A program made the position numbers and the translations under genes. Shown here in pieces: positions 3,705 through 38,887 of a stretch of 38,887 bases of DNA (positions are counted from its first letter, which is position 1; each line of letters opens with the position of its first letter). This DNA is from Nephila pilipes (lineage: Eukaryota): assembly GCA_019974015.1 (NCBI GenBank), contig BMAW01101096.1, positions 268,342 through 307,228 of the forward strand. Direction: 5' to 3'. The notes beneath the pieces were generated by a model. It was not told where the DNA came from and made no database searches. It saw nothing but the letters and a program-made list of their open reading frames with translations.

Positions 3705-3881
3705 CGTTTTGAAGCACAATCAGTCTCAGTAATTCCCCAACGCAAATCCACCTCATTGATTTTAATGAAAATTGAGGCTGCTCTTTTCCTTAATTCTGGC
3801 ATTACAAAGCGAATTAGCATATCTCTTTCACTGTGCATGTCTTTAAACGTTGATGATATAAAAATGCGCACTGTATGCCAT
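3705..3881 (-). CDS. Coding exon of the NWD-like gene. It carries the core of the DUF4062-like module.
   Basis: Translation is WHTVRIFISSTFKDMHSERDMLIRFVMPELRKRAASIFIKINEVDLRWGITETDCASK(R). The acceptor is ttttttag at 3889-3882 and the donor is AAACG|GTATAT (gt at 3704-3703). The exon is 177 bp, and its entry and exit phases are compatible with the neighbouring exons. Confidence 0.6.
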
Positions 3882-4527
3882 CTAAAAAATAGGGAAAAAT
3901 TCAGTTTTAAAGAAAGAATAAATTTTGGCACATATATACAAAACATTCATACTCACTTCAAGCATACGCTTTTGCATACAGATTAATGTATATCAATATA
4001 TGAATTATTAAGCAAAGGCTGTTTTGAAAAACAAGCATTTCAAATCGACATATTGATAAACCGTATTTATTTCATAATACCATACAAAACACATTAATAC
4101 GTATATCAGTTATAAAAACATAGAAGACATTAAAATGAGAGAGAGGAGATATCTTATTTCAAAAGAAATGAAATGGGTACAAAAGTACCTAGCAAATTAT
4201 TTTCATGTAGAAAAAAATAGTAAATGTTTTATTTATAATCTAGTTAAGAAAGGGCATTTAAAGTAAAACAATGAAAAATGGTGACATTACATCGCAGGTT
4301 ACAAAGAAATGACATTTTTTATTTCATAATTCCTATATTTCACAAGTTGTAATATTTGTATGAATTTTTAGAAGGAAATTAAAAACGGGTGGGGAGACAA
4401 GGGTCTATTAATCAGTACAAAGGGCTATCAATTTATTGACAGTTCATTTATTAAACTGAAAAAAAGAATCTGAAGCCATACTATTTTAATATATCAGAAA
4501 ATATGTTGAAATAGCCTTATTTCTTAC

Positions 4528-8417: not shown

Positions 8418-9400
8418 TCAGGAAACGTAAAGAATATTCTGGAAGGTCTTAGAAATTATAGCAATAAACAGAGAACAACTAAACAAAACTTTAACTAGAA
8501 TTTTTAATGTTGTTAGCACTGTGTTTTGAAACCAGGAAACTATCAGCACTGTTTTTTGAACTGTGTTTGAAATCATACCACCTTCTGTTCTTTTCTTGTG
8601 CTTCCAACATTCGTAATCTGCCCAGTTGTCTAGATTCTTCGGCTCTTGATAGTTACCTAGCAGAATTGTCCTTACGGTTTCTTCAGTCTGAATCGGGAAC
8701 ATAGTGACGAGTGTCTTCTCAGCTTTAAGCCCATGCATAAGATAAAACGGTGGTTGTGTCCAGATTTGTATGCAAAAGTAACAAAGGGAAATATTTCATC
8801 CAATCTTTCGGCTCAACTTCGACGTACATGGACAGCATGTATGTTAATGTCTTATTAAAGAGCTCCGTAAGCCCATTAATTTGGGGATAATAAGCAGTCA
8901 TCATTCGATGGATAACATTACAGAGATGATTAAGTTTCGCAACTAGTTTCGATTGAAACACTCCTCGGTCCTCGATTGTCCACGGTCTTTATTGATAACT
9001 CTGGGAGATAATGTACTCAAGGAGATATTTGGTTATTTCCGGGGCTTCAGCAGTAGGTAATGTCTTCGTGATGGCATAGCGGGTTAAGTAATCAGTGCAA
9101 ACAATGTTCCGTTTATGTCCCCTCAGTGACTTTGGAAATCATCCAAGCAAGTCTATTCCGATCCAATGGAATAGTACGATTGCAGGAGGGCTAGGTACTA
9201 AAAGGCTGAAATGGAAGGGCTTTTCTTCGTTGGCATCCACGGCAATGCATAACATATCGATGTACAATGCAATAGAAACCAGGCCTATAGAATCGTTTCC
9301 TCACGTTGTCATAGGTACTGACAAATCCTAAGTGGCCTGTTGTAGGTGCTTTACGAAAATATTAGAATATATCTGAATAGGAGTTTTGGAATGACCCTTA
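8418..9400 (-). pseudogene. Ty3/gypsy-like retrotransposon integrase remnant (HHCC zinc finger plus rve core), with frameshifts and stops
   Basis: Minus-strand translation contains CYALPWMPTKKSP (zinc-finger region), TDYLTRYAITKTLPTAEAPEITKYLLEYI and ...TAYYPQINGLTELFNKTLTYMLSMYVEVEPKDWMKYFP. These fit the integrase patterns YYWPxM..CxxCQxxK, D.FTKy.EA.P, and Y(H)PQTDGQTER.N.TL..ML. The reading frame is broken. Confidence 0.6.
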
Positions 9401-10553: not shown

Positions 10554-11844
10554 ATGAATGAAATCAATATGCAGTTTGTTCTAGGTATGCGTTTAATTAG
10601 AAAAGACCATAATGCCTCGAAAAAGCTGAGTGCTGCATTAGATATGCTATGTTTATCCAAGTCAGCTTTCAGGAACTGTGAAAAGAAGTTGTTGAAAGTT
10701 ACAATACCTATTGCACGGGATTCTAGGAATACTGCAGCTTCTGAAATAAAAGAGACAAATCATCAGGAGGAGGGTTTGACAAGCTGTGGTGTATCTTGTG
10801 ATGGTACTTGGCAACGTCGAGGTCACACATCATTGAATGGGTGTGTAGCAGCTTTATCCATTGATACAGGTAAAGTTGTAGATATTGAAATCATGTCGAA
10901 GAATTGCCGCATATGTACTCGAAACAAAAGGTTAAATGTATCCAGTGATCACATTTGTTCGAGAAATCATTCTGGGTCATCCTCCAGCATGGAATCAGTC
11001 GATGCATTTTGCATCTATGAACGGTCTTACCATTTGCGACAGCTGAAGTATTCGTCCTTTTACGGCGACGGTGATTCACAAGGCTTCTCAGCAGTGAAAG
11101 ACATTTATGGAAAAAATAGTGTTTGCAAATATGATAACATAGGGCACATTCAGAAAAGAGTCGGAACTAACCTTCGAAAACTAAAATCAAGCCAGAAAGG
11201 ATTAGGTGGAAAAGGAAAATTTAAGGACAAATTTATTAATAAACTGCAAAATTACTACAGTATTGCAATTAGAAGCAATGTTGGTGATTTGCCGGGAATG
11301 CAAAGTGCTGTAATAGCAGCATTTTATCGCAGCTGTTCAGGAGTGGATCAGCCAATGCATGGCCAGTGCCCGAAAGGACAATTTAGTAGGTGCAAATATC
11401 ATCGTGCGGAACAAAAGTAAATGAAAAATGCAAAAGCCTGACTAAAATCATTGTTAATTCCCTCAAATCTACATATATTGATTTATGCGATCAAAGCTTA
11501 TTAAAAAATGCCTCCATGGCAAAACTCAGAACTCGAATGAATGCTTTAATGGTTGCTTATGGAAAATAATCCCTAAAGATGTATTTGTGGACCATGAAAA
11601 GTTTACTCTGGGAACTTATATATCTGTAATACATTTTAGTGATGGTTATAAGGGAGTGTTAAAGATATTTTATGCATTAGATGTGTTTCCGGGGCAGTAT
11701 ACGGTTGATGCTTTAAAAACTTCGACATTATTCGCATTGCTGACTTTAAACGACATTCATTCCCATCAGCAAAAATGGCAAGAAAAAAAAATTCGAAATG
11801 CAATAAAATCAAATTTCAAAAGAAAGAGAAAGAAGAAGGTGTGA
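10554..11844 (+). mobile_element. Mutator-like (MULE-type) transposase-like gene. It is split into two ORFs (10554-11420 and 11485-11844) by a stop and a frame change.
   Basis: ORF1 contains CGVSCDGTWQRRGHTSLNGCVAALSIDTGKVVDIEIMSKNCRIC ... FYGDGDSQGFSAVKDIYGKNSVCKYDNIGHIQKRVGTNLRKLK. ORF2 contains KKCLHGKTQNSNECFNGCLWKIIPKDVFV...GTYISVIHFSDGYKGVLKIFYALDVFPGQYTVDAL. I recognise this pattern from a widespread family of animal 'uncharacterized' proteins annotated with a Mutator-like transposase domain. The family assignment rests on memory, not on a database search. Confidence 0.5.
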
Positions 11845-13865: not shown

Positions 13866-15303
13866 TTTTGTGCAAAAGATTTCCAAATCAATACAAATAA
13901 TACCATAAGATCCTCAAGATGCAAGAACATGAGTGATGTAAGCAAAACTTCCCAAAAAAATCAAAAGGATAAAAAGGAACTTTATTGGAAAAAGTAACAT
14001 GGAGCACAAAGCGACTGAAGGCCGAAACATCCATGTGATAGGTGTCCAGCCAGAAACTTCCAGCCTTTAGTAGGAGATATGATAGATATACAGGTTTCAC
14101 ATCATTTGGCCCTGCTGAGTATGAGCTTTTAGATGAGTTGTTGAGGCAATGCAACCCATTCGTCTTGTACCGAGAATTGGAGCTCCGGAATCGTTACTGG
14201 AAGTAAGTTAAGTGCTACCAAGCGTCTCCATAGAAAGTCCCATACATGCTTGATGGGATTCAGATCTGGAGACTTTGCCAGCCAATTCATGCATTCAATA
14301 TCCCCACTGTCCAACAGCTCTTCGACAGCTACTCCGCTATAAGTTGGTACATACTCTTCCATGGAAAGGAACTGTGGACCCATAGCGCCTCTAAAACAAC
14401 ACATACGGAAGGAGAATCTCATTACGATAGCAGGTCAAGGTGACTAAACCTCCTTCAAAGATATGAAGGTTGGTATGGAAACCAAACTTAAGGCCTCCCC
14501 AAACAAGAACACTGCAACCTACAAACCGGTCTCTTTCGTTGATGTTGTAGGGATTATTGCGGTTCTTCACTCTCTCCAGATGTATATGCGTCCAGAATCA
14601 CTATTCAGACTACATCTGTCTCATCCGTAAAGAGTACATGACCCTATCGGTTATCTGTCCAATTCTGGTGTTCCCAGCACCACAGAAATCGCCTTCTCCG
14701 ATAAAGGCATTAAAGGCACACACCGTACAGGTCGTCGAGCAAACAAACCACAACTGTGCAGCGCCCTAGACACGGTAAAACTGCAATTTCTCCCGCTGTA
14801 TACCGCCAGTTCCTTCTGACCTGTAGGGCAATATACCGGTCGTCCACTGACTTGGTTACTCGTGGACGACACAGCTGAACCGCTGGACAGCTGCTCCTGT
14901 AGTTTGAAATTCTCTCCTAAGTCGTGAAACGATGCTGCGAGCAATCCCGTATTCCGTAGTCACAATTCGACCTTCCGCTATATTTTCAATAATTCGACCT
15001 CATGAAAAATCATTGAGATGTTGTCTAACAGATTGACTGTTCGACATTTCACACAAAGGCAGAAACTCGGCGTCATTTCAACTAATACACGCCGTGCAAT
15101 CGCTTTTCCAGAAATTCCTAGTTTACTCCGCTGGCGTGCTTTAAACCGCTTCGACACTGCCGCATTATGACCAGTGCATGTCTCCCCCATGTGCTACCGT
15201 ACCTCACCTTAGTTAATCTCCTGATTCGTCTTTCAGTCCAATTGGCCTCTTCATTCCGCTGATATGCTAATTTTTTTGACTTTGTCCTTAATTTTTGCAC
15301 ACC
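13866..15303 (-). mobile_element. Tc1-like DNA transposon, copy 1 (family C). The transposase on the minus strand is disrupted, and one TIR is partly deleted.
   Basis: The right end CCTTAATTTTTGCACACC (15286-15303) is the inverse of the TGTGCAAAAATTAAGG seen intact at 34157-34172 in copy 2. Copy 1 retains only TGTGCAAAAG at about 13869-13878. Minus-strand ORFs 14129-14422, 14651-14944 and 14978-15190 give SPDLNPIKHVWDFLWRRL, RALHSCGLFARRPVRCVPL and an N-terminal HTH-like segment. These are typical of Tc1 transposases but lie in different frames. Confidence 0.7.
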
Positions 15304-19232: not shown

Positions 19233-19730
19233 CTAGATTCGTTTTCCAACTGTCCATTTCAGACATAATTTCAAATCAGACGAATGAGATTGTTTAACAC
19301 ATCTAGGCTCCAGAAGGCAATATGGGGAAGAATGTCCAACAGACGCACATCTATAGCATGTTAATTTCCCTCTGCATGCTGCATTTGAATGATCGAACCT
19401 CTGACACTGAAAATAGCACAGAGGATTGGGAATACATGGACGTACGTGACAGTTTAGATATCCTGCTTTTATTGTAGTGGGTAGTTGTGGGCTATTGAAT
19501 GTTAATATCAAGTGTTTTGTCGGAAAGGAAGTGTTATCTTTCTTAACTATTATTCTTCCGACTTGAGTGACACCTTGATCGGAGAATCCATCCAGGATAT
19601 CTGCGTCAGAGGTGCACATCAAGTCAGATTCAGAAATGACACCATGACAGGAACTAAGCGACTTATGAGGAATGACCGTAAGGGGTAAATTTAAAAAGGT
19701 TTTTACTAATAAAAAAGATTTAGTTTGCAA
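19233..19730 (-). mobile_element. Non-LTR (LINE-type) retrotransposon ORF1 / gag-like fragment with a triple CCHC zinc knuckle
   Basis: Translation is ...KAGYLNCHVRPCIPNPLCYFQCQRFDHSNAACRGKLTCYRCASVGHSSPYCLLEPRCVKQSHSSDLKLCLKW. This matches the CX2CX3-4HX4C knuckle pattern of insect LINE ORF1 proteins. The flanking GC-richer DNA (about 18.3-20.4 kb) is probably the same element, but its limits are unresolved. Confidence 0.6.
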
Positions 19731-24088: not shown

Positions 24089-27000
24089 CCATGATAGATA
24101 ACAAATGAACCATGAGAGAGAAAGAAAAAAAAAGGGGGGAAGAACTTATAAGTATTCCCTTCGTCTTTACAAGCGAGAAAGGGAAGCACCACAGTTTTAA
24201 AGGCTTAAATAAAAGCTAACGTAAGCATGAATGAATAACACCTGCATGATATCTCAGGTAAATCCATTAAGAAAGCTACGTTTCATGCAGAAAGGAAACT
24301 ACAAAATGGTGTGAAGGACTCGTGTTTAATAATCTGTACTACTCATAAGTTCAACTACATTAATTCAAGTAGAAATACATAGGATTTGTAAGTAAACACA
24401 AACTGAAATTAAAAGAAGTAAGTGATATTCTTTCATATTATAATTTTAAAGCTACGAAAAAAATTTTGAACTATATTTTGGTATGACAGATATTGAAGTT
24501 TTGCATAATATATGTAATTATTAAAGCAATGTCTATAAAAACAATATTCATTAAGTGTTATTAATATGCCAAAATTGAAAAAGTGTAAATTATACTGTTT
24601 TTAATACACCAAAATTAATTTTATATGAGAAGTATAAAGAAAATATATATAAAAATTAAATATGCTGATATTTGTTTTATTCTCGTGAAATTTTTTTTAT
24701 TATTTAATGATCTTAAAATGTTGTTAAAATTTTATTCTCACAAAGTATTTCATACAAGCAGCATGTATGTTTGGATGTAGCATGTTTCTCCTTTCGATAA
24801 AGTTTATTAGAATGCAAGAACGGAACAATCTTAAACAGAAAATATAGAAAAATACATCAGAATCTTTGTTAATTATTTGAGTCATTTAATCAAAAATGTT
24901 CCATTTCTATTTATTCAAAAGAGCTTCTGGAAAGTTCTTCCATTACTAAGATACTTGAAAATTTACTGAGAAATTTCAAACAGATTCTACATGTCTGAAC
25001 ATAATTTTGAAAAAACGTCTAGTTTGAATTAAACTTATGACACATTTATTTACTTAAAGATGGTACATTTTTTAGAAGAATTAAGAGAACTCAGTTTTAA
25101 ATAGGTGCCATCGGATAAACGGCAATATATTATTCAGGTTCTAATGTTAAATATTAAAAATCTTGCATACAACTTTTTTGAATGTTTGTTTGCTATAAAA
25201 ATCCACACCGTTTCACACATTTCGAAATTATAAGCATGTACACCCTTACGGAAACGTGTGATATTATGTTTGAAGCTTAAATTCGTTATATTTGAATAGT
25301 ATTTACCAAACAAAATAATGAAATGCAAAGAACATAACGCAGGGTATCCCAACGGTTTCACAACAACCAATATCTGTAGACTGTGATAGAAATCATGAAG
25401 ACAAGTCTTTTGTTATGTCACATGAGAGATAGGGATTTCTAATTATATAATCATAGTCTAATTACGTTTGAAAAAGTTAGTTATTAATACTTACACACAT
25501 TATATATTTGTTACATTATAAATACTCATAAACTCAGACAATTTAGCCGAGAAGTTATGTTTAATTTTAAAAAATTCGAACGTGGTCAGAAATAATTTCA
25601 TTAATGACACTAAAATCTCAGGATTAAGAAACAAAGCTCGCAATAAAAAAATGCATATATTTTATCATGTGCATATTGCATCGTGTACACAAATACATAG
25701 AGCGTATTTATACACCCATACATACGATGCATTTATTATTAATAAATTTTTACTAGTTTTACTAACTATTTCTATACATCTTCAAAGCTGTTAAGCCAAG
25801 ACAATAACATTTATCAGTAAAAATTCAGAATGAAATTGTCAGCCTTATGTCATTGATTTTCCCAGTGCAGTGCAAACATTTATGAACAGAACGGTTATTA
25901 CATTAGCAACATTCTTTTTTTTTTAATTTGTCCCCTCAACTCTTTGTATAGCTTATTAAAACTTTATCAATGTACTTGAAACTACTCAAAATCCGTTTAA
26001 AAATGCATTAACCTTTAGAAATAAAAAAGAAGTTTTCATTATTACTTTAACATTTCGTACTTTGCATTTAAAAAATCTTTTTTCTTGTCATAAAATTTGT
26101 AAAATAACTTTATTTTTCTATCGCAGTAGTATTATACGAGTAGAATAATCTTTAATAATTTTATTAAAAAAGTAATATGTCGAAATAAAAAAAAATGTAC
26201 ATAAAATTTTCTCCAGAGCTGAATTACCCACAAATAATTTTATTATATTTTAGTCTAATCAAATAATTTTTAATACGTTAATCATTAAACGTTCTGTATC
26301 TTGTTTCAAATGAACAAATAATTCTTTTGTCAATTTCAAGTGTCTTCCATACAATTAAGTCTCAATAACAAATGGCATTTCTCAAAAGGGTCCCTGAAAA
26401 TATTAACGGAAGTGAGACTTATCTACAATCTTGAACTCAGTAATATTCAAGACAAATAAACTCATTGATTTTTTTTCCGAGTTTCACTCTTATATAAGTC
26501 TGTAACTAAATAAGTCTGCAATACTCAGCAAAGATCCAAAGGACTTTCAATTTTATGGCATCTCTAGTACTTTATACACAAATAATGTTAAATAATATAG
26601 AGCAAAAATTACAGGTGTTTAATTAAATTTCTGTAAGCTCCCCGAACTGTTGCTTACAAAGTCAATTAGAATAACAAAATTCTTGCTAGATACAAGATAC
26701 TTCTAAGCAGTTGGATGTGAAGACCTTCCTTTCTGCATCTGCATTCGTGGTCTGAATTGTTATAATTGGCTGCTGGAAAATGACGGTTTCCTTACAATAA
26801 ATATATTTTCGTGTTTTTTCGTGGTCTGAAAATAACCAGTCTGATGTTATAATCTACTATAAGTCATTATCAAAGATTCTGCTATTCTCATTACCTAGGA
26901 CAATACATTAAGAGTTTGTACTTAAACAGTGTCCTGATTATTTTCATAAAGTATATCTCTAACGATGTGGTGGCCCTAAAATGCATAGATCCTGTAGGCT

Positions 27001-27316: not shown

Positions 27317-29911
27317 ATGAAGTTTTTCGACAAAATTTGTCTACTGCTTTTTCTCACAAATGTGGATTCTCGACTTAAAGAGCAACACAGACCATGCTCA
27401 TTCAACCCATTATGCACATGTTCAAATGGAGGACCAGACCTAGGATCTGTATGTTGTCACAACATACCTTTTATGACAGTTCCCTCCCAAATCAACAATT
27501 CTGCAATTTACATAATGAGTCTTAAAGAAAACAAATTACGCTTTCTTGAAGATAATAGTTTAAATGGAACTGGGCTATGGAAACTTCAAATTAACAACAA
27601 TCTTTTAACAGATTTACCCTCTAATGCTTTAGCTGGACTGGAGAAAACATTATCAATTCTAGATTTAAGTAAAAATAATTTAGTAAGGATACCTAGAGAA
27701 GCAATACAGAATTTAGAAAAACTCAGTAATTTAAATTTAGCTGGCAACAAAATTACCTACTTAAACAGTGACGATTTTCGTAATCTAGGTAAGACATTAA
27801 AACTTTTAGATTTGTCAGAAAATGCTCTAATGCAAGTTCAAAATGATGTATTTCGAAATATGATATCATTAGAAGTTTTAAACCTTGCGTATAATTCCAT
27901 AATTTCCATAGATGACATTACATTTCACGGAGGGTTAAATAACTTAAAACATATAATTTTAACAGGAAATCAGCTGCAGCAGATTCCATTAAATGCACTA
28001 GCTAATTTTAGAAACATTAAAATCGTGAACTTGAATGAAAATTTGATATCCAGTATATCTGAGGGAAGAGAAATAAGAAATCGCATCTATCTCGATGAAT
28101 TACATCTCGAACATAATCTTATTAAAGAGCTAACAGCAGAAAGTTTTAGACTTTTCAGTCAAGTAGATCGCATTTTTCTAAAAGGAAATCCACTCTCTAT
28201 AGTTAACGACACTTTTCTGACTACTAATACAACCGAAATTTACATGCCTTACTGTTCAATATCAGTTATAACACATACTGCATTCCTCAGTTCAACACAT
28301 TCACTACAAGTTCTTGATTTAAGTCACAATGAGTTAAAAGAATTTCCAGTCTTACCACTGACCAGATTGACAAAACTCTCGTTAGCTGGAAATTTGATTA
28401 AAGAAGTTGTTCCTGAAGATATAAAATACTGTGGAAATTCTTTAAAGTACTTAGATATCACAGGAACAAAAATGAGTGGTTTGTCTGAAGAGAGTATGAA
28501 TTATTTACCAAACGTAAGAGAACTTTCTTTCAACAAACAATACCCTGTCGTTGGTGCGGAATCTTTACAAAATATTAGTCCCTCAATGGAGAAACTTAAC
28601 ATGGTCCAATGCTCCATAAAAGTCATTGAAAATGGAGCATTTAATAGATTAAGTGGCTTAAAATCATTGGACTTATCTTACAATACAATATCGAAAATTG
28701 GAAATACTACTTTTAAAGATATAAAGCACTCATTAGAAAAACTTATTTTGCACAGTGCTCTAAGAATATCGATATTCCCTTATAAAGCATTGAATTCACT
28801 TTCAAAGTTAGAATATTTAGATGTAAGCAGTAATGACATCCAATATCTACCATATAACTCTTTTGTTTCATTTCAGAATTTAAGGCATTTAAATTTAAAT
28901 CACAACGAATTAAAAGATTTAGATTCAAATTTTGTAAACGATATACATAACCCAAACCTTGCAGAAATAAAAGTGGCATTTAACAAAATAACCTCTTTGA
29001 AGTCATATACTTTTCGAAATTTGAGAAGTTTGATTTATTTGCAACTAAACGATAATCTCATTGAATTCATCAGAAAATCTGCATTTCTCGATTTGGATTC
29101 GATAATGATAATTCGGTTAGAGGGCAATTCAATACAAACTATAGACAGTGAAGCCTTTCAAAATTTACCAAATATCCAAGTAATTAATCTTGCGTACAAT
29201 AAGTTATCCTCTTTTAATCTAGAAGCCTTTAATCAAGTCGGACGACTATCAACTTTAAGAATTGATGTCAATCACAACAATATCCAGAATTTAACAGGAG
29301 ACTATACGGTAACACATACGTCAAGTAATATTAAGCACCTTAATTTCAGTCATAATAACATATCGTATTTGGATAGCAATTATTTAGACCCAATAAGATT
29401 ATCAGTTACTATCTTAGACTTGAGTTACAACAGACTTGTGAATTTAACAACTCTTGCTTTTACAAATATGGCTCATCTGCAAACACTGATCCTCTCAAAT
29501 AATATAATTAGTAAAATAGATGAAGATGAATTTAAAGGTTTAAGATCCATACAAGTGTTAGATTTATCAATGAATAATCTAAATACTCTCCCAGAAAATT
29601 TATTTGAAAAACAAAAACAACTGAGGATATTTTTATTACATCATAATGAAATCGACGAATTACCAGAAGACATTTTTAAGGCAACTATTCTGGAACAGAT
29701 AGATTTGTCCTTTAACAACATTGAAGAATTCCCTTATTATTCTATATCTCAAATCAAAAACACTTTGCAATTTTTGAACTTAGCTGGAAATCAAATAGAA
29801 GCTCTTAATTTCAGTAGTATAATGTCTCTGCAAAATCTAAGGTACTTGAGTCTTTCACGAAATCGACTGTTTATACCCAGTTCTGAAGAAGATTTACAAC
29901 TGCCAAAATTA
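27317..29911 (+). CDS. chp: Chaoptin-like LRR cell-adhesion protein, coding exon 1 (signal peptide, N-terminal cysteine cap and about 30 LRRs)
   Basis: An 865-codon open frame starts MKFFDKICLLLFLTNVDS, which is signal-peptide-like, followed by PCSFNPLCTCSNGGPDLGSVCCHNIPF. It then runs through continuous 24-residue LxxLxLxxNxL repeats. Internal blocks such as YMPYCSISVITHTAF, INLAYNKLSSFNLEAFNQVGRLSTLRIDVNHNNIQNL and NIKHLNFSHNNISYL match what I recall of Drosophila chaoptin. The start codon is directly preceded by an acceptor-like tttacag. The donor is AAATTA|GTAAGT (gt at 29912-29913). Confidence 0.8.
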
Positions 29912-30829
29912 GTAAGTATTACATTATTAATTATATTCAGAAAAAATAAATGTTTGTGTTTTCAATATTTAAACGCTTTATTAAATATAATTGTAAGTAT
30001 TTAAATGATTTTAAAAAATATTTACAACCAAACTGGTAAAAAGTAAATAATAATAATTTTATCAACCTCAAAATTTCTTCTATTCATGTTTAAGCAAAAT
30101 GAAATTTCTTTATTATATAAGTCGAATTGAGAAATACTTAATTAACAAATTAACAAAATAAAACATATATAAATAAAAAAAAAAAATTATGGCTGAATTC
30201 TATAACATTGCTATTTTTCATCAAAGTAAAAATAAAATGTAATAAACAACTATGAGCTTTTGAAAATGGGAAAAAATATATATATTTGAAAAATTTAAGG
30301 GGAAAAAATGAAAAAATATTGAAATTTGTGTGACGGCATTTCAAAATATTTTAATCATAAGCTGGAGATAAAAAGTTATTAGAACACAACATTTAAATAA
30401 AAAACTCAAAATTCATATTTTTTTGTAATGTTTTAAAGATATTTTAAATGATACTAAAAATATTAACTTATACAAATAGATTTTATTTGACACATTATTA
30501 GACCATTTTCGTAACAGTGAAATTTAAAGGTCACCAATGAGCTTATATATGTATATCCAATTCATTATATTCAATACTTTGTCTACATATGGAAAAAGAT
30601 GATGATATTAATGGGATAAATTCTACGATGATGAAAAAAATAACATTTATCTAATGCATTTTAAAAGAAATTGTTTATCATACTTTAATACAAATAAGAC
30701 TTCTAAGAAAAATTAACTATAATACATATATTTATATTGTTTTCAGTATTTTATACAAATCACAGTTTTATAGGAATATTAAAAAATTCATAATTTTTAA
30801 ATGAATTATCGTTTTTGTCTTTTTTCTAG

Positions 30830-31621
30830 ATAACACTGGATCTATCTCATAATACGATAAAAGAGCTTCCGGCATGGATAGCTAACCATTTACCCCCCAG
30901 TCTCGAACAACTCAATTTGGCAAATACAAGTTTAGAAACTGTTCCAGCTCTAGGTTCCTGCAATATTTTAATTTTGAATCTAAGTTCCAATAGCATACAA
31001 ACAGTGGAACAAGAAGAATTTGAACAACTTAAGAAACTACAAACTATAGATTTATCTAATAACTTGCTGCTAACTACTTATAATAATGTATGGTCAAACC
31101 TTCAACATCTGAAAACACTTTATTTGCAAAAGAATCCAATACAAAAATTATTAAATAATAGTTTTATGAACATGGAAAGGCTACAAGAATTATTTATGAA
31201 AAAATTAAAATTGCAAGAAATTGACCAAGATGTTTTTCATGAATTAACAGCACTAAAAAAGGTAGAAATGGATACTTTTCCCAATAAGAATATGGATTTA
31301 TCTCAAATACTTCGAAATAATCAAGGAATTCAAGAGATTCGTCTGCATGTGCAGGACAATGGATTAGATGGAATATTCAATGGGGAACTTCCTAAATCAT
31401 TAAAATTCATTGTATTGGAAGGAGAAAATTTAAAACATTTAGATGAATCAATATTTTCCTACATCCAAAGTCAAACTCTCAAGCTGAATATTCAGAATTC
31501 AAATATAACCAAACTCTCACAGAAAGTTTTTCAAAACATGAAAGAAGTAAGGAATTTCACAGTGGAATTTATAAACAACAAATTACAGACACTTGAAAAA
31601 TTATATGCAGTCGGAAAAGAG
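30830..31621 (+). CDS. chp: Chaoptin-like gene, coding exon 2 (LRRs)
   Basis: The acceptor is ttttgtcttttttctag (ag at 30828-30829). Translation starts ITLDLSHNTIKELPAWIANHLPPSLEQLNLANTSLETVP... in phase 0, contiguous with exon 1 (...LQLPKL|ITLDLSHN). The donor is GGAAAAGAG|GTAATA (gt at 31622-31623). Confidence 0.75.
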
Positions 31622-32817
31622 GTAATATTAAGTAACAATTTTCATAAAATGAGTAGTTTTTTATACATCCATGAAAAATAACTATAAAAATAGTTCATTT
31701 AACTGTATAAAAAAAAATTGAAAGAACGTCTGATTAATGTAATGTTTGATGAAGATAAATTTTGGCCTATGATTTCAATTACATTTATGGAGGGTAAAAC
31801 TTAATTATGCAGCATTTTATTTAATGGCATTTTAAAAAGACTACAGCAGCGATATTTATTTACATTCAATAACAAGTTAAGTTTCATTTAATCAGTAAAA
31901 AAACAAGTTAATATAAATTCCTTAAATATCAATTTTAAAATTAATGTTAAAATTAAACACCACTGTGTTAAATGTTTAGACGTTTTAAAGCCTAGTGAAT
32001 ATAAAAGAAATATATATTAACAGAATTGCTTTCAAAATTAAACCTTTTCTTTCAGTTTTAATTATTTCATAATGGCATCGGCATAAGCTTATCATTCAAT
32101 GCTAATGTGATATAAATCAAACAGAACAATCAAAAAGGAAAATGTTACTTCTAAAACATTAATTAAATATCAAAATATGATTTTTTTTTATTTTACTTTA
32201 TCAACAACATACATTTCAGACATTAAATTTTTTCCTACTAACTAATCATTTGACGTTCTTTATTCACTAAGCCACCTCTTTAATTATATGTAAACTATCT
32301 ATTTCTTTCCCATTTAATATATATTTCTAAATGTAATATAACTACATAATGAGAGATTTAAGCACTTTAGTTTTGCAAATGCAAATCCAAAATACAGCGT
32401 ATTTGATTTTAAATATTTAATATTTGAAGTTTTTTTCTAGAGTTATCGAAAAAAATTATTTTAATATTTCTTTCTTTTTCATTTTCTCCCTAATTAAGAT
32501 GCAAATCTCTTCTAAATTGATATTTAAAGATATTCTCTCATGAATGTTTAACTTTTAATTAAAGTGCTAATCGAGTGAAAATTTTGTGATTAGCATCCGT
32601 ATCACACAATACTAAGATGGGTTGTATTCGCGACAGGTGATAATGTCAATGTTATAATAGTTATAAGATAAAATTAAAATGTTGTAAGCAAAATACAGAA
32701 TACGGTTTAATCACTCGAAAAATTAAGCACACATATGTAATTAAATTACGTGACAACACATCGTAGATTTTTAAGCAATATAACCTTTTCTTGAAATATA
32801 TTTTTTTCCTATTACAG

Positions 32818-33141
32818 GTATCCGGAAAATACCTGAAACATTTAAAATTGTCAGGAAATCAATTGGATTGTGATTGTGAACTTTTCTGGATATGGGAATG
32901 GTTGAAAGAATATGAATACGTGAACAAATGTGAGGAAAGGATATGTGAAGAGACTTATTTACATGATTTACGAGAAACCAAATGCGTCAATATGAATAAC
33001 AGATCAATCATAAATGTATTTAAAACAGATTTACAATGTGTTTCAAATGGAACTCCAGCAGAAAACCCAAAAAGTATATTACTTCACTTCTTCATAAGCA
33101 TCGTTTTCATGCTATTTTACATAAAAGTGGTTATAATCTAA
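32818..33141 (+). CDS. chp: Chaoptin-like gene, terminal coding exon (last LRR, LRRCT cysteine cap and a hydrophobic GPI-signal-like tail, plus stop)
   Basis: The acceptor is tttttttcctattacag. Translation is VSGKYLKHLKLSGNQLDCDCELFWIWEWLKEYEYVNKCEERICEETYLHDLRETKCVNMNN...ILLHFFISIVFMLFYIKVVII*. The CDC...C...C cap plus 'DLRETKC' matches the chaoptin C-terminus. The tail is hydrophobic with no cytoplasmic domain, consistent with a GPI anchor. Confidence 0.75.
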   Translation, partial: VSGKYLKHLKLSGNQLDCDCELFWIWEWLKEYEYVNKCEERICEETYLHDLRETKCVNMNNRSIINVFKTDLQCVSNGTPAENPKSILLHFFISIVFMLFYIKVVII

Positions 33142-33647
33142 AAATAATACTAAAATCAAAAATGTTTCTTATGAATTAGATCATTAATACTTAGATAATG
33201 AATACATGTAAAAGTTTCATTATTTTACATATTTCCAAACTACGCTTAAATTACACAAAAATATATTTAAATATGTTGAAAATATATCTAAAATATTAAC
33301 ATATTAACATACACATTAAATATTAATAACTTTAAATATTTGTCTGTGTTACGATTTTACATGTTTTCCGTACAATACTGAGAAGACGTGTATTTAGCTT
33401 TCTTGAGTTATGACACTTAATATGTAAATCTAGTTAAGTATGTATAAAAATAAAATCTTTCGATTATAGAAGTGAATTCTTATGTCTCACATACTTCAAT
33501 TTTTCATCCATCATTTACTAATACAAATACTAATTTAAGAACATTATAATTAAAAATGAACAGACTTTCTTACAATTTAACTAAATTAACTGTTTTAAAA
33601 AAAAAATGTCTTTTCGTTACATTTGCAATCTATATCATTTACTAATG

Positions 33648-33668
33648 TTTTTTTTTTTTTTTTTTTTT
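33648..33668. repeat. T21 homopolymer
   Basis: Direct reading. Confidence 0.95.
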
Positions 33669-34155
33669 AAAAAATTTGACAGTGAATTTCTTTAACAGTA
33701 AATAAGGATTCAATGAAACCTACTTCTAATAAATAATCAATCAATCAATGACACACACTCAAAAAAAATGTTTTCAGGATCAATTAAAAAGGCTGAAATG
33801 AGTACATAAAAACAGTTTGTATGCACTATGTAATAAATAATTTCAGAAAATTTATGATTGCCAAAATCAATGAAAATTAAACTCTAGATATTATATTTAA
33901 GTCACAAAATAACAAACGAAATTCAACAAGGAAATTTAAAATTTAACTGTGTAACAAACATTAATGTTGATTTTTTTAAGTCAAATCTTCATGAAAGTAC
34001 AAAAATTTAATAAACAAATAATGAACATATTCTTGAAAAATGAATTTTATTTGATGGCATAGACAATAAGAAATATTCATACTTCACATAATAGTACAAT
34101 GGTCCCACAAACCATTCGTAGTTTTAATGACCGGATATTATAAATACACTGATTG

Positions 34156-34792
34156 TGCAAAAATTAAGGACGAGATAGTTTTTTCATTATAACGTTGCCC
34201 AAAAGCTTTCCAAATCAACTCACATAATACCATAAGATCCCCAAGACGTAAGAAAAAGTGTAATGTAGGCAAAACTTACTAAAAAAGAAATCAAAAGGAT
34301 AAAAAGGAACTTTATTAAAAAAGTAGCATGGAGCACAAAGCGACTGAAGGCCAAAACATCTATGTGACAGGTGTCCAGCCAGAAACATCCAGCCTTTAGT
34401 AGAGAATATGATTTTCCCTGACTTCTATGCAGGTTTCATATCGTCTGGCTATGCTGAGTATTATGAGGTTGTCAATGAGTTGCTAAGGCATTGCAGCCCA
34501 TTCGTCTTGTACCGCCAATCGGAGCTCTGGAATTTTTACAGGCGGTACGTTACGTGCTGCCAAGCATCTCCCTAGGAAATCTCATACATGCTCGATGGAA
34601 TTTAGATACAGGAGACCTTGCCACCAATCCATGCGTTCAATATCCTCAATGTCCAACAGCTCTTCGAAGGCTACTGTGCGATGAGCTGGCACATTGTCGT
34701 CCATGTGAAGGAACTTCGGAACTTAAAGCGTCTCTAAAAAGACACGCATAGGGAAGGAGAATCTCGTTATGCCCTTAATTTTTGCACACCAT
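34156..34792 (-). mobile_element. Tc1-like transposon copy 2 (same family as 13866-15303). It is internally deleted and non-autonomous, about 0.64 kb, with both TIRs present.
   Basis: TGTGCAAAAATTAAGG at 34157-34172 is the inverse of CCTTAATTTTTGCACACC at 34775-34792. Region 34209-34763 aligns at about 90 % identity with 13895-14427 of copy 1, for example the shared AAATCAAAAGGATAAAAAGGAACTTTATT and ATGGAGCACAAAGCGACTGAAGGCC. It then jumps directly to the terminal CCTTAATTTTTGCACACC, which implies an internal deletion of about 855 bp relative to copy 1. Confidence 0.7.
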
Positions 34793-37700
34793 TGAATGAG
34801 AAATTAAAACATAATAAATAACCTTCAGAGCCATTATCAATACTTATGATAATCAAGACTTTACTTTTGTGCCCTTTATGAAAATTGTAAATTTGAAATT
34901 GAATTTATTCAAAAATCTGGTTGATGCCTTCACATCTGCTGTAATATTTCAACTTACCTTTAGACATTAAATATTTCATCAGACATATAAAAATTCGAAA
35001 GTGGTGAGTTAAATTTAAAATAATTGGATTAATAATAGAACAGAATTACAATAAGATGCGATTTAAAACAAATCTTGAAAATTAAGAATCCTATTTACTG
35101 CGGAATAATGTTTTTTAATTGTTTGATTTTCAAAAACTTCTGAGATTTAAACATAAATAAATATGATTAAGTCAAACAATTTTAATTGCCAAATGGGCTT
35201 TAACTAAAGGAGGAAATTATGTTTTGTAATATTAATACTTTTTAAACAACTGTATTTTAATAACCGTAAGTTTAAATGTTTTTATACACTTAAATCAGTA
35301 AGAATTTCAGAAGCTCTTTCTACAAGCAGATTTCAGATGAGCTATGTTAAAAAAGAAGGGGAAAAAACAGAATGTGCATATGACATTTATTCAAAAAATT
35401 CATTTTGTCTCCTAAAATAGGAACATTTACTCACCTGCAATAATGAATTTAGAGTCACAACGAAATAAATTGATTTTTTTTCCCAAAAATATAAGGAAAT
35501 ATCACGGATTATATGTATTTAAAGTAACTTGCTCTACGTAAGAATTGCAATTCTTTTCTCAGAATCAAGAGGAAAAATTTGACAAAAAAATTAAAAATTG
35601 CATATTTTTTATAATCAGCGCCGTAGTACAGTAATATGACTTATTAGTATAAAGCATAGACTTAGGTTAGTATTTTCTGTATTATTTTATGCTATTTAAA
35701 GCTTTAACAATTTCAGAAGGAAAAAAAAGAGAGAACGCTTTTATAGGATTATTTTACCTTTTTAAAACTTTTTTCAAGAGTTCTTAACGTTCGACTTAAC
35801 ACAAATTATTTTTAAAAAAGTTTAATGCTTTAAAAATATACTTGATCTTATAAGAGTCAAGGGAAAAAGCGAATAACAAATTTTATTTAAAAAGTTATTA
35901 TCGCTTTAATTAAAAATATTATTCGAAATACTAAATGCATTAAAAATATGGCTTCAAAATGAAAGTTTTAAAACATAGAAAACATCAAAATCTCAAGTGG
36001 GGACGAAGTGAGAAGAAGGAGGCAAGTTGGCATGAGAGAAAATGCATGTTAGCTAAATTGGTTTTAGTGAAGTGACATAATTAGTACAAATGCTTAAATC
36101 ATCTACAATTTTCTTTCAATACATTGAAAAAAATAAAGACATAATGAATTATTACTAATATTTAAATTTTTGTAAAATTTAATTTGTCAATTTTTCATAA
36201 TCATAATCAATTTTTGTAAAAGTGTAATTTCAGTTTTACACAATTAAAAACAACTGCATTTATAGGTTTTAAAATATAATGCACACAACGTGAGTGCGAG
36301 ACCTCAAAAAATATCGATCTCGGTTAATCAAATGCATAAATATTTCTATTTAACAGAAATATGTTGCATTTTTCCAAAAAAATGCATATTTTTATTCTTG
36401 AAAGCAACATTTAAAGTACTTTCCTTTACAGTATTATCAGATTAAAAAGATGTAAAGAGAAGAAAAGAAAACATTTATGATTAAAAGTATTTTTTCCATC
36501 TAAACAGAGAAGGGAAATACTATTATTCTAAGTTATAAGTTTGTTTGTTATTAAATTCAAACTTCAATACTTGAATAGCCAAATGCAAATAAATGTACAT
36601 AATTCAATTTTTTTTAAATATGTGTATATAAAACATAATACTTATAAATAAGTACAAGTTTAATGAGATTTATGAAATTTTTTAACAGATTTATTAATCC
36701 ATTAATAAAATAAATCTTCTCCACTATAAAAGGATATAATGCGAATTTAAAGTATTGCAGAATATTTTTATATTTATACTAATCAGTGCTTTCGTTATTT
36801 TAATGCACGTAAAAAATACAGTTTGCAATATTGAAGCATCTATTTTAAGGAATACGTCATTCATAAGTTTATCATTAATCGAACCAATAAATCACTTAAA
36901 AATGTAAGATCGAAAGTTGTATGCAAAGTTTTGCAAAGAACAGATCTAGCCATAAAAGGTGCTCTTTTTTTTATAATTATAATTAAATTACTCAATTAAA
37001 TATAAGAACTGAAGTAAACGATGAAATACCGAGAAATGGACAATAGTAAACTGTTCCGATATTAAAATTAAAGCAAACGATAAATTATTAAATTGAATAT
37101 ATTTAAGCTAAATGTAATTAAAATTGAAGCAAACGATAAAAAATTGAAAAGTGATCTGGTACGTCAAAAGTGATTCAACTAAAACAATAGCCCCTTGGGT
37201 AGCTAATAATATTACCTCAGTAGCAAATAAACATTTTATTTATGTGACATATAATAACTATTTAAATACCATTGACACACACAAGATACAAAAATTCTAT
37301 AGCAAAAGTCTCGTGTGTGAAAAATGATAACATTTTCTGAAATTGCATAAACTACTTCTAATCAGTGAAATAATTATATAAAATGCTTGTCCCAATAGAA
37401 AAATGATGCTAGATAGGAGGAGGAAAGATAACTCTGAAAGAGATAAACATAATATGAAACGCAGAGATGAGCAGGTTGAAAGACAAAAAGAACAAATGAA
37501 CGGTATAACATGTTGTTTGATAAGCGGAACAATAAAGAAAATGAAAAAAAGAGAAGGTTTATACATGACACCCGAGAGCAGGATGTTCCTCCTCTTTCCA
37601 AACCAGCAGGTTTTCTTTTACAGCCACTCCCCTCCCTAATCAGGTTTCACCACTTCTATGCAGTCGTCATTGGTAATCGAATCTACTAAATACGATTCGA

Positions 37701-38110
37701 TACAAAATAAGAACAAATATTAATAAATTTTGAGAATAGAAATGCATAGTACAATTAAAAGAACCTTACAAATATTTCTCAAAAAAAAAATAGATGTGTA
37801 ACATTTTTCAAATGCTTTTCAACTGCTTTAATATTAGATTAACATTCGCAGAGTTTGGACATCACTGTTTTCAGTAAAGTAATTTGAACACTTTAAAACC
37901 AAGCGTTTGAGAAAGATTTGAAAACGAACTCGTCTACGAACGAAGTTTCTCTGTTTTCCCTACAGAGGAAGAAGAAAGCAAAATCATCATGTAAATTTAG
38001 TTCCCCCAGAAAAAAAAATACCATAAAGGAGCTAATGTAGAATTAAAAATTTTTTAATTCTTTTTGGGAGCGAAGAATAGATCATAAATGAGTGCATTGG
38101 GTTTACTGAC

Positions 38111-38209
38111 CTTTTCTCTTAAGATAACATTTTGTTTCAAGTAGTACTCCAAAGTTCTTTTTAAAGCATCCACAGAACTTGTTAAACCATCTTTAGTGAC
38201 GGAGAACGA
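38111..38209 (-). CDS. Candidate exon of an unidentified minus-strand gene (no homology recognised)
   Basis: The acceptor is gtttcttccag and the donor is GAAAAG|GTCAGT (gt at 38110-38109). The 33 codons are SFSVTKDGLTSSVDALKRTLEYYLKQNVILREK, which is non-repetitive and not AT-biased, unlike the surrounding DNA. Alternatively it may read on to the stop at 38054. Confidence 0.25.
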
Positions 38210-38887
38210 CTGGAAGAAACGCAAGCAATGAATCAATTGAAATATAAAGCAATATTTTATAAAATAAGAAGTATTGTTCACAGAGCAGCAGTTATTTTGC
38301 AAAAAAAAAATATTTCTAAGTTTACGGTAAAATTTTAAAAATAAAAGTAAAGAATAAGTTTTACTGATATAGTTCTCAAAACTATTAATTTTATGAATCT
38401 TTTTTATATAAAGAAACACATATCACAAGCTTAATTTTACTTAGGTAGAAGAGCTCCCAAGCCTTAACATTTTAATTTTTTAAGTGAAATGCACCCGTTC
38501 ATTGCATCTCTCACATAAGTTTCCAATATCAGCTACAAAATTCATACAATATCTAAAAATATTTTCTTCCAAATGGAATTTTTGGATAAGTAAAGCTTGA
38601 CACAATCATGACGAAAAGTGTATTAGAAATGATTTTAAGTCATGCAAAATTCTAGAAAAATATAAATTAAAATATAGAGAAAAATAACAATGATATTAAA
38701 CTATATTTCAGTTGGTCTCTGTCTATATTTCAATAGAAAACTGCATGTTAACCATATTGAAAAGAGACTTTGAACTCAGATAATCTTCAATATGAAACAG
38801 ATGGTGGCGAAAGAGATCTACTTTCTATTCATCTAGAACTAAATTATTTTTCTTAATTTAGGAAGTAAAATTTTTCAAAAGAAGTAA

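What the first reader, a model, noticed from the sequence alone, without database searches (positions are those of the whole stretch)
27317..33141. Apparently complete chaoptin orthologue with LRRCT cap and a GPI-signal-like tail
Three phase-0 exons join into a secreted protein of about 1237 aa made almost entirely of leucine-rich repeats. It ends in a cysteine-rich cap and a hydrophobic tail with no TIR or other cytoplasmic domain. The N-terminal cysteine motif (PCSFNPLCTCS), several internal blocks and the C-terminal LDCDCELFW...DLRETKC correspond closely to Drosophila chaoptin as I recall it. Chaoptin is the photoreceptor-specific adhesion protein required for rhabdomere formation. The gene identity and an arthropod origin are the most solid conclusions for this window. 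I see no stop or frameshift, so the gene appears intact despite the surrounding transposon load.
Basis: partly seen in the sequence, partly recalled or inferred. Interest (0 to 1): 0.5.

Follow-up and report, generated by a model that had tools for sequence, protein, structure and literature searches.

The report
Spider chaoptin gene, intact, already annotated

Summary
Three phase-0 exons (27317-29911, 30830-31621, 32818-33141, + strand) have GT/AG at all four junctions. They join into a 1236-aa ORF ending in TAA.

The product is 100% identical to GenBank GFS98073.1, 'chaoptin [Nephila pilipes]'. That record only adds 19 N-terminal residues from two micro-exons about 2.9 kb upstream.

Orthology to Drosophila chaoptin was tested and is supported:
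- A Drosophila chaoptin aligns over the whole length (32.6% identity, 597 bits).
- Among the fetched chelicerate proteins, it scores highest against this protein's clade (567-625 bits). The other spider 'chaoptin-like' proteins score 321-363.
- A bootstrapped NJ tree puts insect chaoptins plus this arachnid clade together at 100%. It separates them from a second 'chaoptin-like' clade, artichoke and the nematode proteins.

Homology in the window is confined to the three exons. No domain was found in the 5.7 kb downstream, and no TIR domain in the protein.

The protein has an N-terminal signal-like segment, about 40-45 LRRs and 18 N-glycosylation sequons. It also has a conserved C-terminal Cys cap and a textbook GPI-type tail. 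GPI anchoring, eye expression and adhesive function are inferred from fly work, not shown.

Verdict: already known, low interest.

The parts
24246..24257 (+). Upstream micro-exon 1 of the deposited model (ATG ATA TCT CAG | gtaaat; encodes MISQ). It is probably 5' UTR rather than coding sequence.
   Evidence: P0001 carries a 19-aa extension and the sequence was read directly. The extension is not shared by the orthologues.
24372..24416 (+). Upstream micro-exon 2 of the deposited model (encodes KYIGFVSKHKLKLKE, donor gaa|GTAAGT). A near-identical stretch is in the Trichonephila clavipes model. It is likely a conserved 5' leader exon spliced onto the acceptor at 27316.
   Evidence: tblastn placed the P0001 extension here; sequence read; the T. 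clavipes model has QYIGFVSKYKLKLKE.
27317..29911 (+). Coding exon 1 (aa 1-865). It holds the start codon, the signal-like segment, the N-terminal Cys motif and most of the LRRs.
   Evidence: tblastn of the orthologues covers it end to end. The same intron position is seen in three other genomic contigs related to this spider, whose called proteins stop just after ...(P/S)KL|V.
27317..27370 (+). Putative signal peptide, aa 1-18: MKFFDK + ICLLLFL + TNVDS. Cleavage after VDS is proposed by the -3/-1 rule.
   Evidence: Hydrophobicity and inspection. The orthologues start at the same Met with the same pattern. SignalP was not available.
27395..27457 (+). N-terminal cysteine motif (aa 27-47; C27, C33, C35, C46, C47; PCSFNPLCTCS...GSVCC), the N-cap of the LRR solenoid.
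   Evidence: Cys positions. The motif is aligned and conserved in Drosophila, Tribolium and Neocloeon chaoptins and nearly invariant in 46 sequences. There is no Pfam LRRNT hit.
29912..30829 (+). Intron 1 (918 nt, GT...AG, phase 0).
   Evidence: It shows no homology to the orthologues.
30830..31621 (+). Coding exon 2 (aa 866-1129): LRRs, including the irregular repeats of the C-terminal third.
   Evidence: The AlphaFold2 model of exons 2+3 has pLDDT 90.
31622..32817 (+). Intron 2 (1196 nt, GT...AG, phase 0).
32818..33141 (+). Coding exon 3 (aa 1130-1236 plus the TAA stop at 33139-33141): last LRR, Cys-rich C-cap and hydrophobic tail.
32869..33039 (+). C-terminal cysteine-rich cap (C1147, C1149, C1167, C1172, C1185, C1203; NQLDCDCELFWIWEWL...DLRETKC...DLQC), LRRCT-like.
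   Evidence: C1147, C1149, W1153, W1157, L1180, R1181, C1185 and C1203 are invariant across 8 chaoptins. In the model a helix follows the CxC directly, with high pLDDT. The nearest solved folds are extracellular LRR ectodomains such as LINGO-1, NGL-3, LGR5 and Nogo receptor. Pfam LRRCT is not matched.
33043..33138 (+). GPI-attachment-signal-like tail. The candidate omega site is S1205-N-G, followed by an 8-residue polar spacer (TPAENPKS) and a 21-residue hydrophobic end (ILLHFFISIVFMLFYIKVVII, nt 33076-33138). There is no cytoplasmic tail.
   Evidence: Hydrophobicity. In the model the spacer is low-confidence and the tail helical. 113 of 121 full-length chaoptin-clade proteins end the same way. 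No GPI predictor was run.

Best explanation
The locus is the single, intact, three-coding-exon chaoptin (chp) orthologue of the golden orb-weaver Nephila pilipes.

SHOWN:
- The gene structure.
- Identity with the deposited record.
- Membership of the chaoptin clade.
- Collinearity with arachnid and insect chaoptins from the start Met to the hydrophobic C-terminus.

INFERRED from sequence:
- The protein enters the secretory pathway through an N-terminal signal peptide.
- It folds into one long, heavily N-glycosylated LRR solenoid of about 40-45 repeats, capped by Cys clusters at both ends.
- Its C-terminal about 30 residues are exchanged for a GPI anchor near S1205.

INFERRED from Drosophila genetics and biochemistry:
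- The protein sits on the outer leaflet of photoreceptor microvillar membranes.
- It glues neighbouring microvilli together by adhesion, so that the rhabdomeres of the spider's eyes form and stay ordered.

The 19-residue extension in the GenBank model most likely reflects 5' leader exons that happen to carry an in-frame ATG.
For: Gene model:
- Open frames, phase-0 junctions and GT/AG sites.
- Chance probability of the open frame is about 1e-31.

Identity:
- 100% identity over 100% of the query to P0001 = GFS98073.1 / A0A8X6N7N5 'chaoptin [Nephila pilipes]'. Trichonephila orthologues share its 90% cluster, and the T. clavata model is exactly 1236 aa.

Orthology:
- A Drosophila chaoptin cluster representative (P0121) was retrieved with a query that matched it at 99%.
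- P0121 aligns to this protein over residues 20-1228 at 32.6% identity, 597 bits.
- P0121 scores this clade (567-625 bits) well above the other spider 'chaoptin-like' proteins (321-363 bits) and artichoke (<200 bits).
- NJ tree, 1140 columns, 200 bootstraps: {10 insect chaoptins + Nephila/Stegodyphus/SRR7472191/Centruroides + Leptotrombidium} 100%; arachnid subclade 99%; insect subclade 100%. A clade B holding both insects and chelicerates is 98% and separate, so the duplication predates the insect-chelicerate split.

Completeness:
- tblastn of four chaoptin orthologues and two paralogues hits only the three exons.
- P0003 comes from an intronless 4021-nt contig. It has in-frame stops upstream of the equivalent Met and ends in the same hydrophobic tail.
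- Three other contigs break at the same exon-1 boundary.

Architecture:
- Pfam LRR_8 E 2.6e-120 in 12 stretches, and only LRR families.
- 35 strict LxxLxLxxNxL matches in 24-residue register, plus degenerate repeats in the gaps.
- 18 N-glycosylation sequons, against 16 in fly chaoptin (PMC2672165).
- Invariant Cys caps.
- AlphaFold2 model pLDDT 90, pTM 0.84.
- The tail architecture is shared by 113 of 121 clade members.

Function in flies:
- A GPI-anchored adhesion glycoprotein required for microvillar stability and inter-rhabdomeral adhesion (PMC4021355; PMC2672165).

Expression hint:
- The deposited Nephilinae gene sets kept only models with cDNA-seq expression of at least 0.1 (bioRxiv 10.1101/2021.04.22.441049).
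Against: - No expression data from spider eyes were examined, so photoreceptor specificity is untested.
- The signal peptide and GPI signal rest on hydrophobicity and rule-of-thumb inspection only. The N-terminal h-region is short (7 residues).
- Pfam detects neither LRRNT nor LRRCT in the termini, even at E <= 10.
- Identity to fly chaoptin is only about 33%, and the tree is distance-based NJ on a repeat protein, not a model-based phylogeny.
- The exact product P0001 was not found in the contig index, so genomic context beyond the window was not seen.
- The deposited model uses an upstream ATG, and this cannot be excluded without 5' RNA data.
Confidence: 0.9

Rival explanations
1. It is not the chp orthologue but a member of one of the paralogous giant-LRR families that databases also label 'chaoptin' or 'chaoptin-like': clade B, which includes Parasteatoda 'chaoptin', Larinioides 'Chaoptin', Danaus 'putative chaoptin' and nematode 'Chaoptin', or artichoke.
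For: Such paralogues exist in spiders and share length and architecture (P0034, P0043, P0059 at 27-30% identity). Database names are automatic.
Against: The query scores insect true chaoptins at E about 1e-180, against about 1e-107 for insect clade B proteins. Drosophila chaoptin scores the query at 597 bits, against 321-363 bits for clade B spiders and under 200 for artichoke. The tree separates the clades with 98-100% bootstrap, and each clade contains both insects and chelicerates.
Confidence: 0.03
2. It is the ectodomain of a Toll/TLR-type receptor whose transmembrane and TIR exon lies downstream or was missed.
For: TLR3, TLR13 and a TIR-domain protein appear among the PDB sequence hits (E 1e-30 to 1e-34). 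One distant hit is named 'toll-like receptor 13' (P0089).
Against: These are generic LRR similarities, about 150 orders of magnitude weaker than the chaoptin matches. The frame ends in TAA immediately after the hydrophobic tail. The orthologous transcript contig ends the same way. No Pfam domain appears in + strand ORFs of 33142-38887. There are no internal Cys-cluster caps of the kind found in Toll ectodomains; Cys clusters occur only at the two ends.
Confidence: 0.01
3. The gene is the same, but the C-terminal hydrophobic stretch stays in the mature protein as a membrane-spanning anchor with no cytoplasmic tail, or the protein is secreted, rather than the stretch being replaced by GPI.
For: No GPI predictor or experiment was run. 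The tail is 21 residues long, enough to span a bilayer, and it models as a helix.
Against: The S-N-G small-residue triplet, 8-residue polar spacer and terminal hydrophobic run with nothing after it form the canonical GPI-signal layout. The layout is conserved in 113 of 121 clade members, including Drosophila chaoptin, which is experimentally GPI-anchored (Krantz & Zipursky 1990 and Rosenbaum et al. 2012, as cited in PMC4021355).
Confidence: 0.08
4. The deposited 1255-aa model is right. Translation starts at the upstream ATG (24246), so the mature mRNA encodes a 19-residue basic extension in front of the hydrophobic segment.
For: BRAKER with cDNA-seq hints built this model. Both micro-exons have good GT donors. 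The second micro-exon is conserved in the T. clavipes model. The ATG at 27317 directly follows an acceptor, so an upstream exon certainly exists.
Against: The four Nephilinae models disagree on everything upstream of MKFFDKIC: extensions of 0, 13, 19 and 53 aa, the longest looking mariner-derived. The Stegodyphus, Centruroides and SRR7472191 orthologues start at the equivalent Met. The SRR7472191 transcript has in-frame stops just upstream of that Met.
Confidence: 0.15

Closest known systems
GenBank GFS98073.1 / UniProt A0A8X6N7N5, 'chaoptin [Nephila pilipes]' (Kono et al. Nephilinae draft genomes)
   Same: Identical over all 1236 residues; this is the same locus.
   Different: The record has 19 extra N-terminal residues from two micro-exons at 24246-24257 and 24372-24416. 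The orthologues do not share them.
Drosophila chaoptin (chp; Swiss-Prot P12024; represented here by cluster P0121)
   Same: Collinear over the whole length. It shares the N-terminal PC.(F/Y)N..C.CS Cys motif, the 24-residue LRR register, the C-terminal CDC..W...W...DLRET.C...L.C cap and a terminal hydrophobic GPI-type tail. The number of N-glycosylation sequons is similar (18 vs 16). The two proteins fall in the same clade.
   Different: Only about 33% identity. Its function and expression are untested in spiders.
Arachnid chaoptin orthologues: Stegodyphus dumicola 'chaoptin-like' (P0002), Logan SRR7472191 transcript (P0003), Centruroides sculpturatus 'chaoptin-like' (P0007)
   Same: 65%, 61% and 40% identity. 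Same start, same length (1233-1243 aa), same end and same exon-1 boundary.
   Different: Species differences only.
'Chaoptin-like' clade B (e.g. Parasteatoda tepidariorum 'chaoptin' P0059, Larinioides 'Chaoptin' P0034, Danaus 'putative chaoptin' P0036)
   Same: Same size class and an all-LRR architecture with a C-terminal Cys cap; 27-30% identity.
   Different: A separate clade with 98% bootstrap that contains its own insect and chelicerate members, i.e. an ancient paralogue.
Artichoke (atk) and Toll/TLR ectodomains
   Same: Long extracellular LRR solenoids.
   Different: Artichoke clusters apart. Toll/TLRs carry TM and TIR domains and internal Cys caps that are absent here.
Nogo receptor, LINGO-1 and NGL-3 (solved structures)
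   Same: These are the closest solved folds to the modelled C-terminal third (Foldseek E about 1e-7 to 1e-9). From general knowledge, they are extracellular LRR proteins with Cys caps, and Nogo receptor is GPI-anchored.
   Different: Much shorter proteins, about 20% identity, vertebrate neuronal proteins. They are structural analogues, not orthologues.

Membership tests
Chaoptin (chp) orthogroup | Reciprocal best similarity to Drosophila chaoptin relative to paralogous LRR families | tested here: met
   Forward search: the best insect hits are the proteins that a Drosophila chaoptin query also retrieves. Reverse search within the 225 fetched proteins: the query scores 597 bits, against 321-363 for other spider LRR paralogues.
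Chaoptin (chp) orthogroup | Phylogenetic placement inside the clade containing Drosophila chp, with a species-tree-like topology | tested here: met
   NJ tree with 200 bootstraps: chp clade 100%, arachnid subclade 99%, insect subclade 100%, clade B 98% and separate. The method is distance-based only.
Chaoptin (chp) orthogroup | Polypeptide made almost entirely of about 24-residue LRRs (38-41 reported for the fly protein) | tested here: met
   Pfam shows only LRR families, with LRR_8 at E 2.6e-120. There are 35 strict motif matches in 24-residue register plus degenerate repeats, an estimated 40-45 in total. The fly figure of 38 comes from PMC2672165.
Chaoptin (chp) orthogroup | Conserved N-terminal and C-terminal cysteine caps | tested here: met
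   The Cys, Trp and Arg columns are invariant across arachnid and insect chaoptins. The C-cap models with high confidence.
Chaoptin (chp) orthogroup | GPI anchoring (C-terminal GPI-attachment signal, no TM or cytoplasmic domain) | tested here: inconclusive
   The sequence layout fits: S-N-G, an 8-residue polar spacer, then 21 hydrophobic residues to the very end. The layout is clade-wide. No GPI predictor or experiment was available.
Chaoptin (chp) orthogroup | N-terminal signal peptide | tested here: inconclusive
   MKFFDK-ICLLLFL-TNVDS fits the n/h/c layout and is conserved in the orthologues. SignalP was not available, and the h-region is short.
Chaoptin (chp) orthogroup | Photoreceptor-specific expression and adhesion required for rhabdomere microvilli | not testable with these tools
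   Known for Drosophila only (PMC4021355). No spider eye expression data were accessible.
Pfam/SMART LRRCT domain | Significant match to the LRRCT profile | tested here: not met
   Pfam gives no hit for the isolated 107-aa C-terminus, even at E <= 10, and none in the whole protein. The CxC...W...W...C...C motif and the predicted helix after the CxC resemble an LRRCT, and some sources name homologues 'LRRCT domain-containing'. The safest wording is 'LRRCT-like cap'.
Toll / Toll-like receptors | Transmembrane helix followed by a cytoplasmic TIR domain | tested here: not met
   The stop codon follows the hydrophobic tail directly. There is no TIR domain in the protein, and no Pfam domain in + strand ORFs of the 5.7 kb downstream.
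Artichoke and 'chaoptin-like' clade B | Phylogenetic placement in those clades | tested here: not met
   Both form separate, well-supported groups that exclude the query.

The most novel reading that the evidence does not exclude
The most novel reading not excluded is that the conserved upstream leader exon (24372-24416) is not a BRAKER artefact. It is shared with Trichonephila clavipes and carries an in-frame upstream ATG. It could therefore mark a Nephilinae-specific alternative N-terminus or a uORF-like translational control of chaoptin. More broadly, spider chaoptin might have acquired roles outside the retina. One comparative study lists chp among genes under positive selection in non-diurnal spiders (PMC13372096).
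Probability: 0.05. Interest if true: 0.3.

Novelty: already known. Interest (0 to 1): 0.1.

Why it matters
It matters little beyond housekeeping. The result confirms that the window is Nephila pilipes genomic DNA. It also shows that a first-stage reader can reconstruct a 3-exon, 1236-aa gene and name it correctly from sequence alone.

Two minor practical points follow:
- The deposited N. pilipes model probably has a spurious 19-residue N-terminal extension. The T. inaurata and T. clavipes models have different ones.
- Many database entries called 'chaoptin' or 'chaoptin-like' in spiders, Lepidoptera and nematodes belong to a separate ancient paralogue clade. Studies of visual-gene evolution in chelicerates should pick the clade represented here as the true chp orthologue.

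Tried and rejected
- The look-up of encoding contigs for the deposited product P0001 found nothing on record, so no genomic context beyond the window was obtained.
- Pfam on the isolated N- and C-terminal pieces at E <= 10 gave no LRRNT or LRRCT hit.
- Rfam over the whole window gave nothing. Tandem repeats were only low-complexity A/T runs.
- Pfam on the ten longest + strand open frames downstream of the stop gave only two sub-threshold chance matches. A downstream TIR or other exon was therefore rejected.
- tblastn with four chaoptin orthologues and two paralogues, looking for extra or alternative exons in the introns and flanks, found none.
- The Toll/TLR, artichoke and clade-B 'chaoptin-like' identities were considered and rejected on score gaps and on the tree.
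- A pseudogene was rejected: there is no stop or frameshift, the protein is fully collinear with its orthologues, and conserved residues are intact.
- Full-length structure prediction was not attempted because the protein exceeds the 1200-residue limit. Exons 2+3 were modelled instead.
- The species behind SRR7472191 could not be looked up.

Full report
**1. Observation**

Their lengths (2595, 792 and 324 nt) are all multiples of three. Joined, they give a 3711-nt CDS: 1236 codons plus TAA.

All four junctions are canonical:
- donor tta|GTAAGT at 29912
- acceptor ttttctAG| before 30830
- donor gag|GTAATA at 31622
- acceptor tattacAG| before 32818

The window is 31% G+C, so stop codons are expected at a frequency of 0.079 per codon. 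An 865-codon open frame then has a chance probability of about 1e-31.

**2. Identity of the locus**

A search of the large protein collection returned a 100%-identical, 100%-coverage match, P0001. This is GenBank GFS98073.1 / UniProt A0A8X6N7N5, 'chaoptin [Nephila pilipes]'. Its 90% cluster also holds the chaoptins of three Trichonephila species.

These records come from the Nephilinae draft genomes, annotated with BRAKER and cDNA-seq hints. Their functional gene set kept only models with expression of at least 0.1 and a database annotation (bioRxiv 10.1101/2021.04.22.441049).

**3. Gene model and start codon**

The deposited protein is 1255 aa. It differs only by the N-terminal extension MISQKYIGFVSKHKLKLKE. 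I located this in two micro-exons at 24246-24257 and 24372-24416. They splice onto the acceptor that directly precedes the ATG at 27317 (tttacAG|ATG).

The extension is unlikely to be coding, for three reasons:
- The four Nephilinae models disagree on everything upstream of MKFFDKIC. T. clavata has no extension and is exactly 1236 aa. T. inaurata adds 13 aa and N. pilipes 19 aa. T. clavipes adds 53 aa, with a mariner-like 'GDEKWVTYDN' start.
- Stegodyphus, Centruroides and the Logan SRR7472191 orthologue all begin at the equivalent Met.
- The SRR7472191 contig is intronless (a 3.7-kb ORF on a 4.0-kb contig, so a transcript). It has in-frame stops just upstream of that Met.

The second micro-exon is conserved in the T. 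clavipes model, so a real 5' leader exon is likely.

**4. Completeness**

tblastn of four chaoptin orthologues and two paralogues against the window hits only the three exons. The orthologues' residues are accounted for end to end.

Three related genomic contigs yield called proteins of 866-879 aa. They stop just after the residues equivalent to ...LPKL and read through a GT. The exon-1/intron-1 boundary is therefore conserved.

The ten longest + strand open frames in the 5.7 kb downstream of the stop give no Pfam domain, only two sub-threshold chance matches.

**5. Orthology test**

A query built from my recollection of Drosophila chaoptin matched a Drosophila chaoptin cluster at 99% identity. 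I used the database sequence P0121 for every later comparison.

- The best insect hits of the spider protein (P0008, P0009, P0011, P0013-P0024, P0026, P0030; E about 1e-180 to 1e-133) are also on the Drosophila chaoptin hit list.
- In the reverse direction, P0121 was compared with all 225 fetched proteins. It aligns to the spider protein over residues 20-1228 at 32.6% identity and 597 bits. Its clade-mates score 567-625 bits.
- The other spider proteins named 'chaoptin' or 'chaoptin-like' (P0034, P0043, P0059) score 321-363 bits. Artichoke scores below 200.

A neighbour-joining tree was built from 42 sequences and 1140 columns with 200 bootstraps:
- {insect chaoptins + Nephila/Stegodyphus/SRR7472191/Centruroides + a mite}: 100%
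- arachnid subclade: 99%
- insect subclade: 100%
- a separate 'clade B' holding both insects and chelicerates: 98%
- artichoke and the nematode proteins: apart from both

The chp/clade-B duplication therefore predates the insect-chelicerate split, and this gene is on the chp side. TLR ectodomains in the PDB match only at about 1e-34, which is generic LRR similarity.

**6. Anatomy of the protein**

- Pfam finds only LRR families; LRR_8 scores E 2.6e-120 in 12 stretches.
- A strict LxxLxLxxNxL pattern matches 35 times in 24-residue register, with one further out-of-register match. Double-length gaps and an irregular stretch (aa 970-1135) bring the estimate to 40-45 repeats. Fly chaoptin is reported with 38 (PMC2672165).
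- There are 18 N-x-S/T sequons, against 16 in fly chaoptin.
- Cysteines cluster at the two ends: C27, C33, C35, C46 and C47, then C1147, C1149, C1167, C1172, C1185 and C1203. Only four isolated cysteines lie between them.
- C1147, C1149, W1153, W1157, L1180, R1181, C1185 and C1203 are invariant in eight arachnid and insect chaoptins. The N-terminal motif is aligned and conserved in them.
- Pfam does not call LRRNT or LRRCT, even at E <= 10. 'LRRCT-like cap' is therefore the accurate wording.
- An AlphaFold2 model of exons 2+3, built with 46 aligned chaoptins, is confident (pLDDT 90, pTM 0.84). It shows a regular solenoid and a helix immediately after the CxC. The stretch at aa 1206-1211 is low-confidence, and the end is helical and hydrophobic.
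- The nearest solved folds are extracellular LRR ectodomains: LINGO-1, NGL-3, LGR5 and Nogo receptor.

**7. Termini**

The N-terminus (MKFFDK / ICLLLFL / TNVDS) has the n/h/c layout of a signal peptide, though the h-region is short.

The only strongly hydrophobic 19-mer windows (Kyte-Doolittle > 1.6) lie in the last 24 residues, and the hydrophobic run (aa 1216-1236) ends at the final residue. The interior maximum is 1.19. Upstream of the run are eight polar residues (TPAENPKS) and the small-residue triplet S1205-N-G. This is the classical omega / omega+2 / spacer / hydrophobic layout of a GPI-attachment signal.

The same end architecture is present in 113 of 121 full-length members of the chaoptin clade. 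That includes Drosophila chaoptin, which is experimentally GPI-anchored (Krantz & Zipursky 1990 and Rosenbaum et al. 2012, as cited in PMC4021355). I could not run SignalP or a GPI predictor, so both termini remain inference.

**8. Mechanism**

Shown here:
- the gene structure
- orthology
- the all-LRR ectodomain
- the conserved caps and tail

Inferred from the Drosophila literature: the protein is a heavily glycosylated, GPI-anchored, arch-shaped LRR adhesion molecule on photoreceptor microvilli. It keeps microvilli and early rhabdomeres attached.

Spiders have rhabdomeric photoreceptors (general knowledge). The most likely role is therefore the same one in the spider's eyes. No spider expression or functional data were available. 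The only spider-specific mention I found lists chp among positively selected genes in non-diurnal spiders (PMC13372096).

**9. Verdict**

- Observation: confirmed.
- Interpretation: supported, with the caveats that 'LRRCT' and 'GPI' are likeness claims rather than tests.
- Novelty: none. The locus is a deposited, named gene.
- Interest: low.

Noticed in passing
window 1115-1483 (-) and 3686-3946 (-): Two minus-strand ORFs both match Pfam DUF4062: profile positions 42-79 (E 4.6e-06) and 1-23 (E 1.3e-05). They look like two exons of a neighbouring gene that is transcribed leftwards and runs off the window.
   Followed up: partly
window 10554-11420 (+), continued by ORF 11485-11844 (+): An ORF fragment of a Mutator-like transposase (PF20700, E 2.1e-50, profile positions 71-357 of 357). 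It is a DNA-transposon insertion in the 27 kb upstream of chaoptin.
   Followed up: partly
window 14129-14422 (-), 8725-8961 (-), 19233-19730 (-): Further decayed mobile-element remnants. One is a weak DDE_3 (Tc1/mariner-type) match, E 0.0026, below the cut-off. Two were recognised by eye only: an integrase-like 'YYPQINGLTELFNKTL' ORF and a CCHC zinc-knuckle gag-like ORF. Local G+C rises to 0.42-0.47 in these stretches, against about 0.28 around the gene.
   Followed up: partly
window 24246-24257 and 24372-24416 (+): These are the two micro-exons used by the GenBank model to add 19 N-terminal residues. The second is conserved in the T. clavipes model. The four Nephilinae chaoptin models have four different N-termini, and the T. 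clavipes one starts with a mariner-like peptide, which suggests annotation artefacts.
   Followed up: yes
proteins P0034, P0043, P0059, P0036, P0039 and others (not in the window): Many database proteins called 'chaoptin' or 'chaoptin-like' do not belong to the chp clade. The spider and Lepidoptera examples fall in a separate, well-supported clade B (98% bootstrap) with its own insect and chelicerate members. The nematode 'Chaoptin' proteins group apart, nearer artichoke. No Parasteatoda or Larinioides member of the true chp clade appeared among the top 120 hits.
   Followed up: partly
window 34348-34748 (+): A short island of higher G+C (0.36 against about 0.23 in the flanks) with 75-90-codon open frames and no Pfam match. 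It may be a repeat or SINE fragment downstream of the gene.
   Followed up: no
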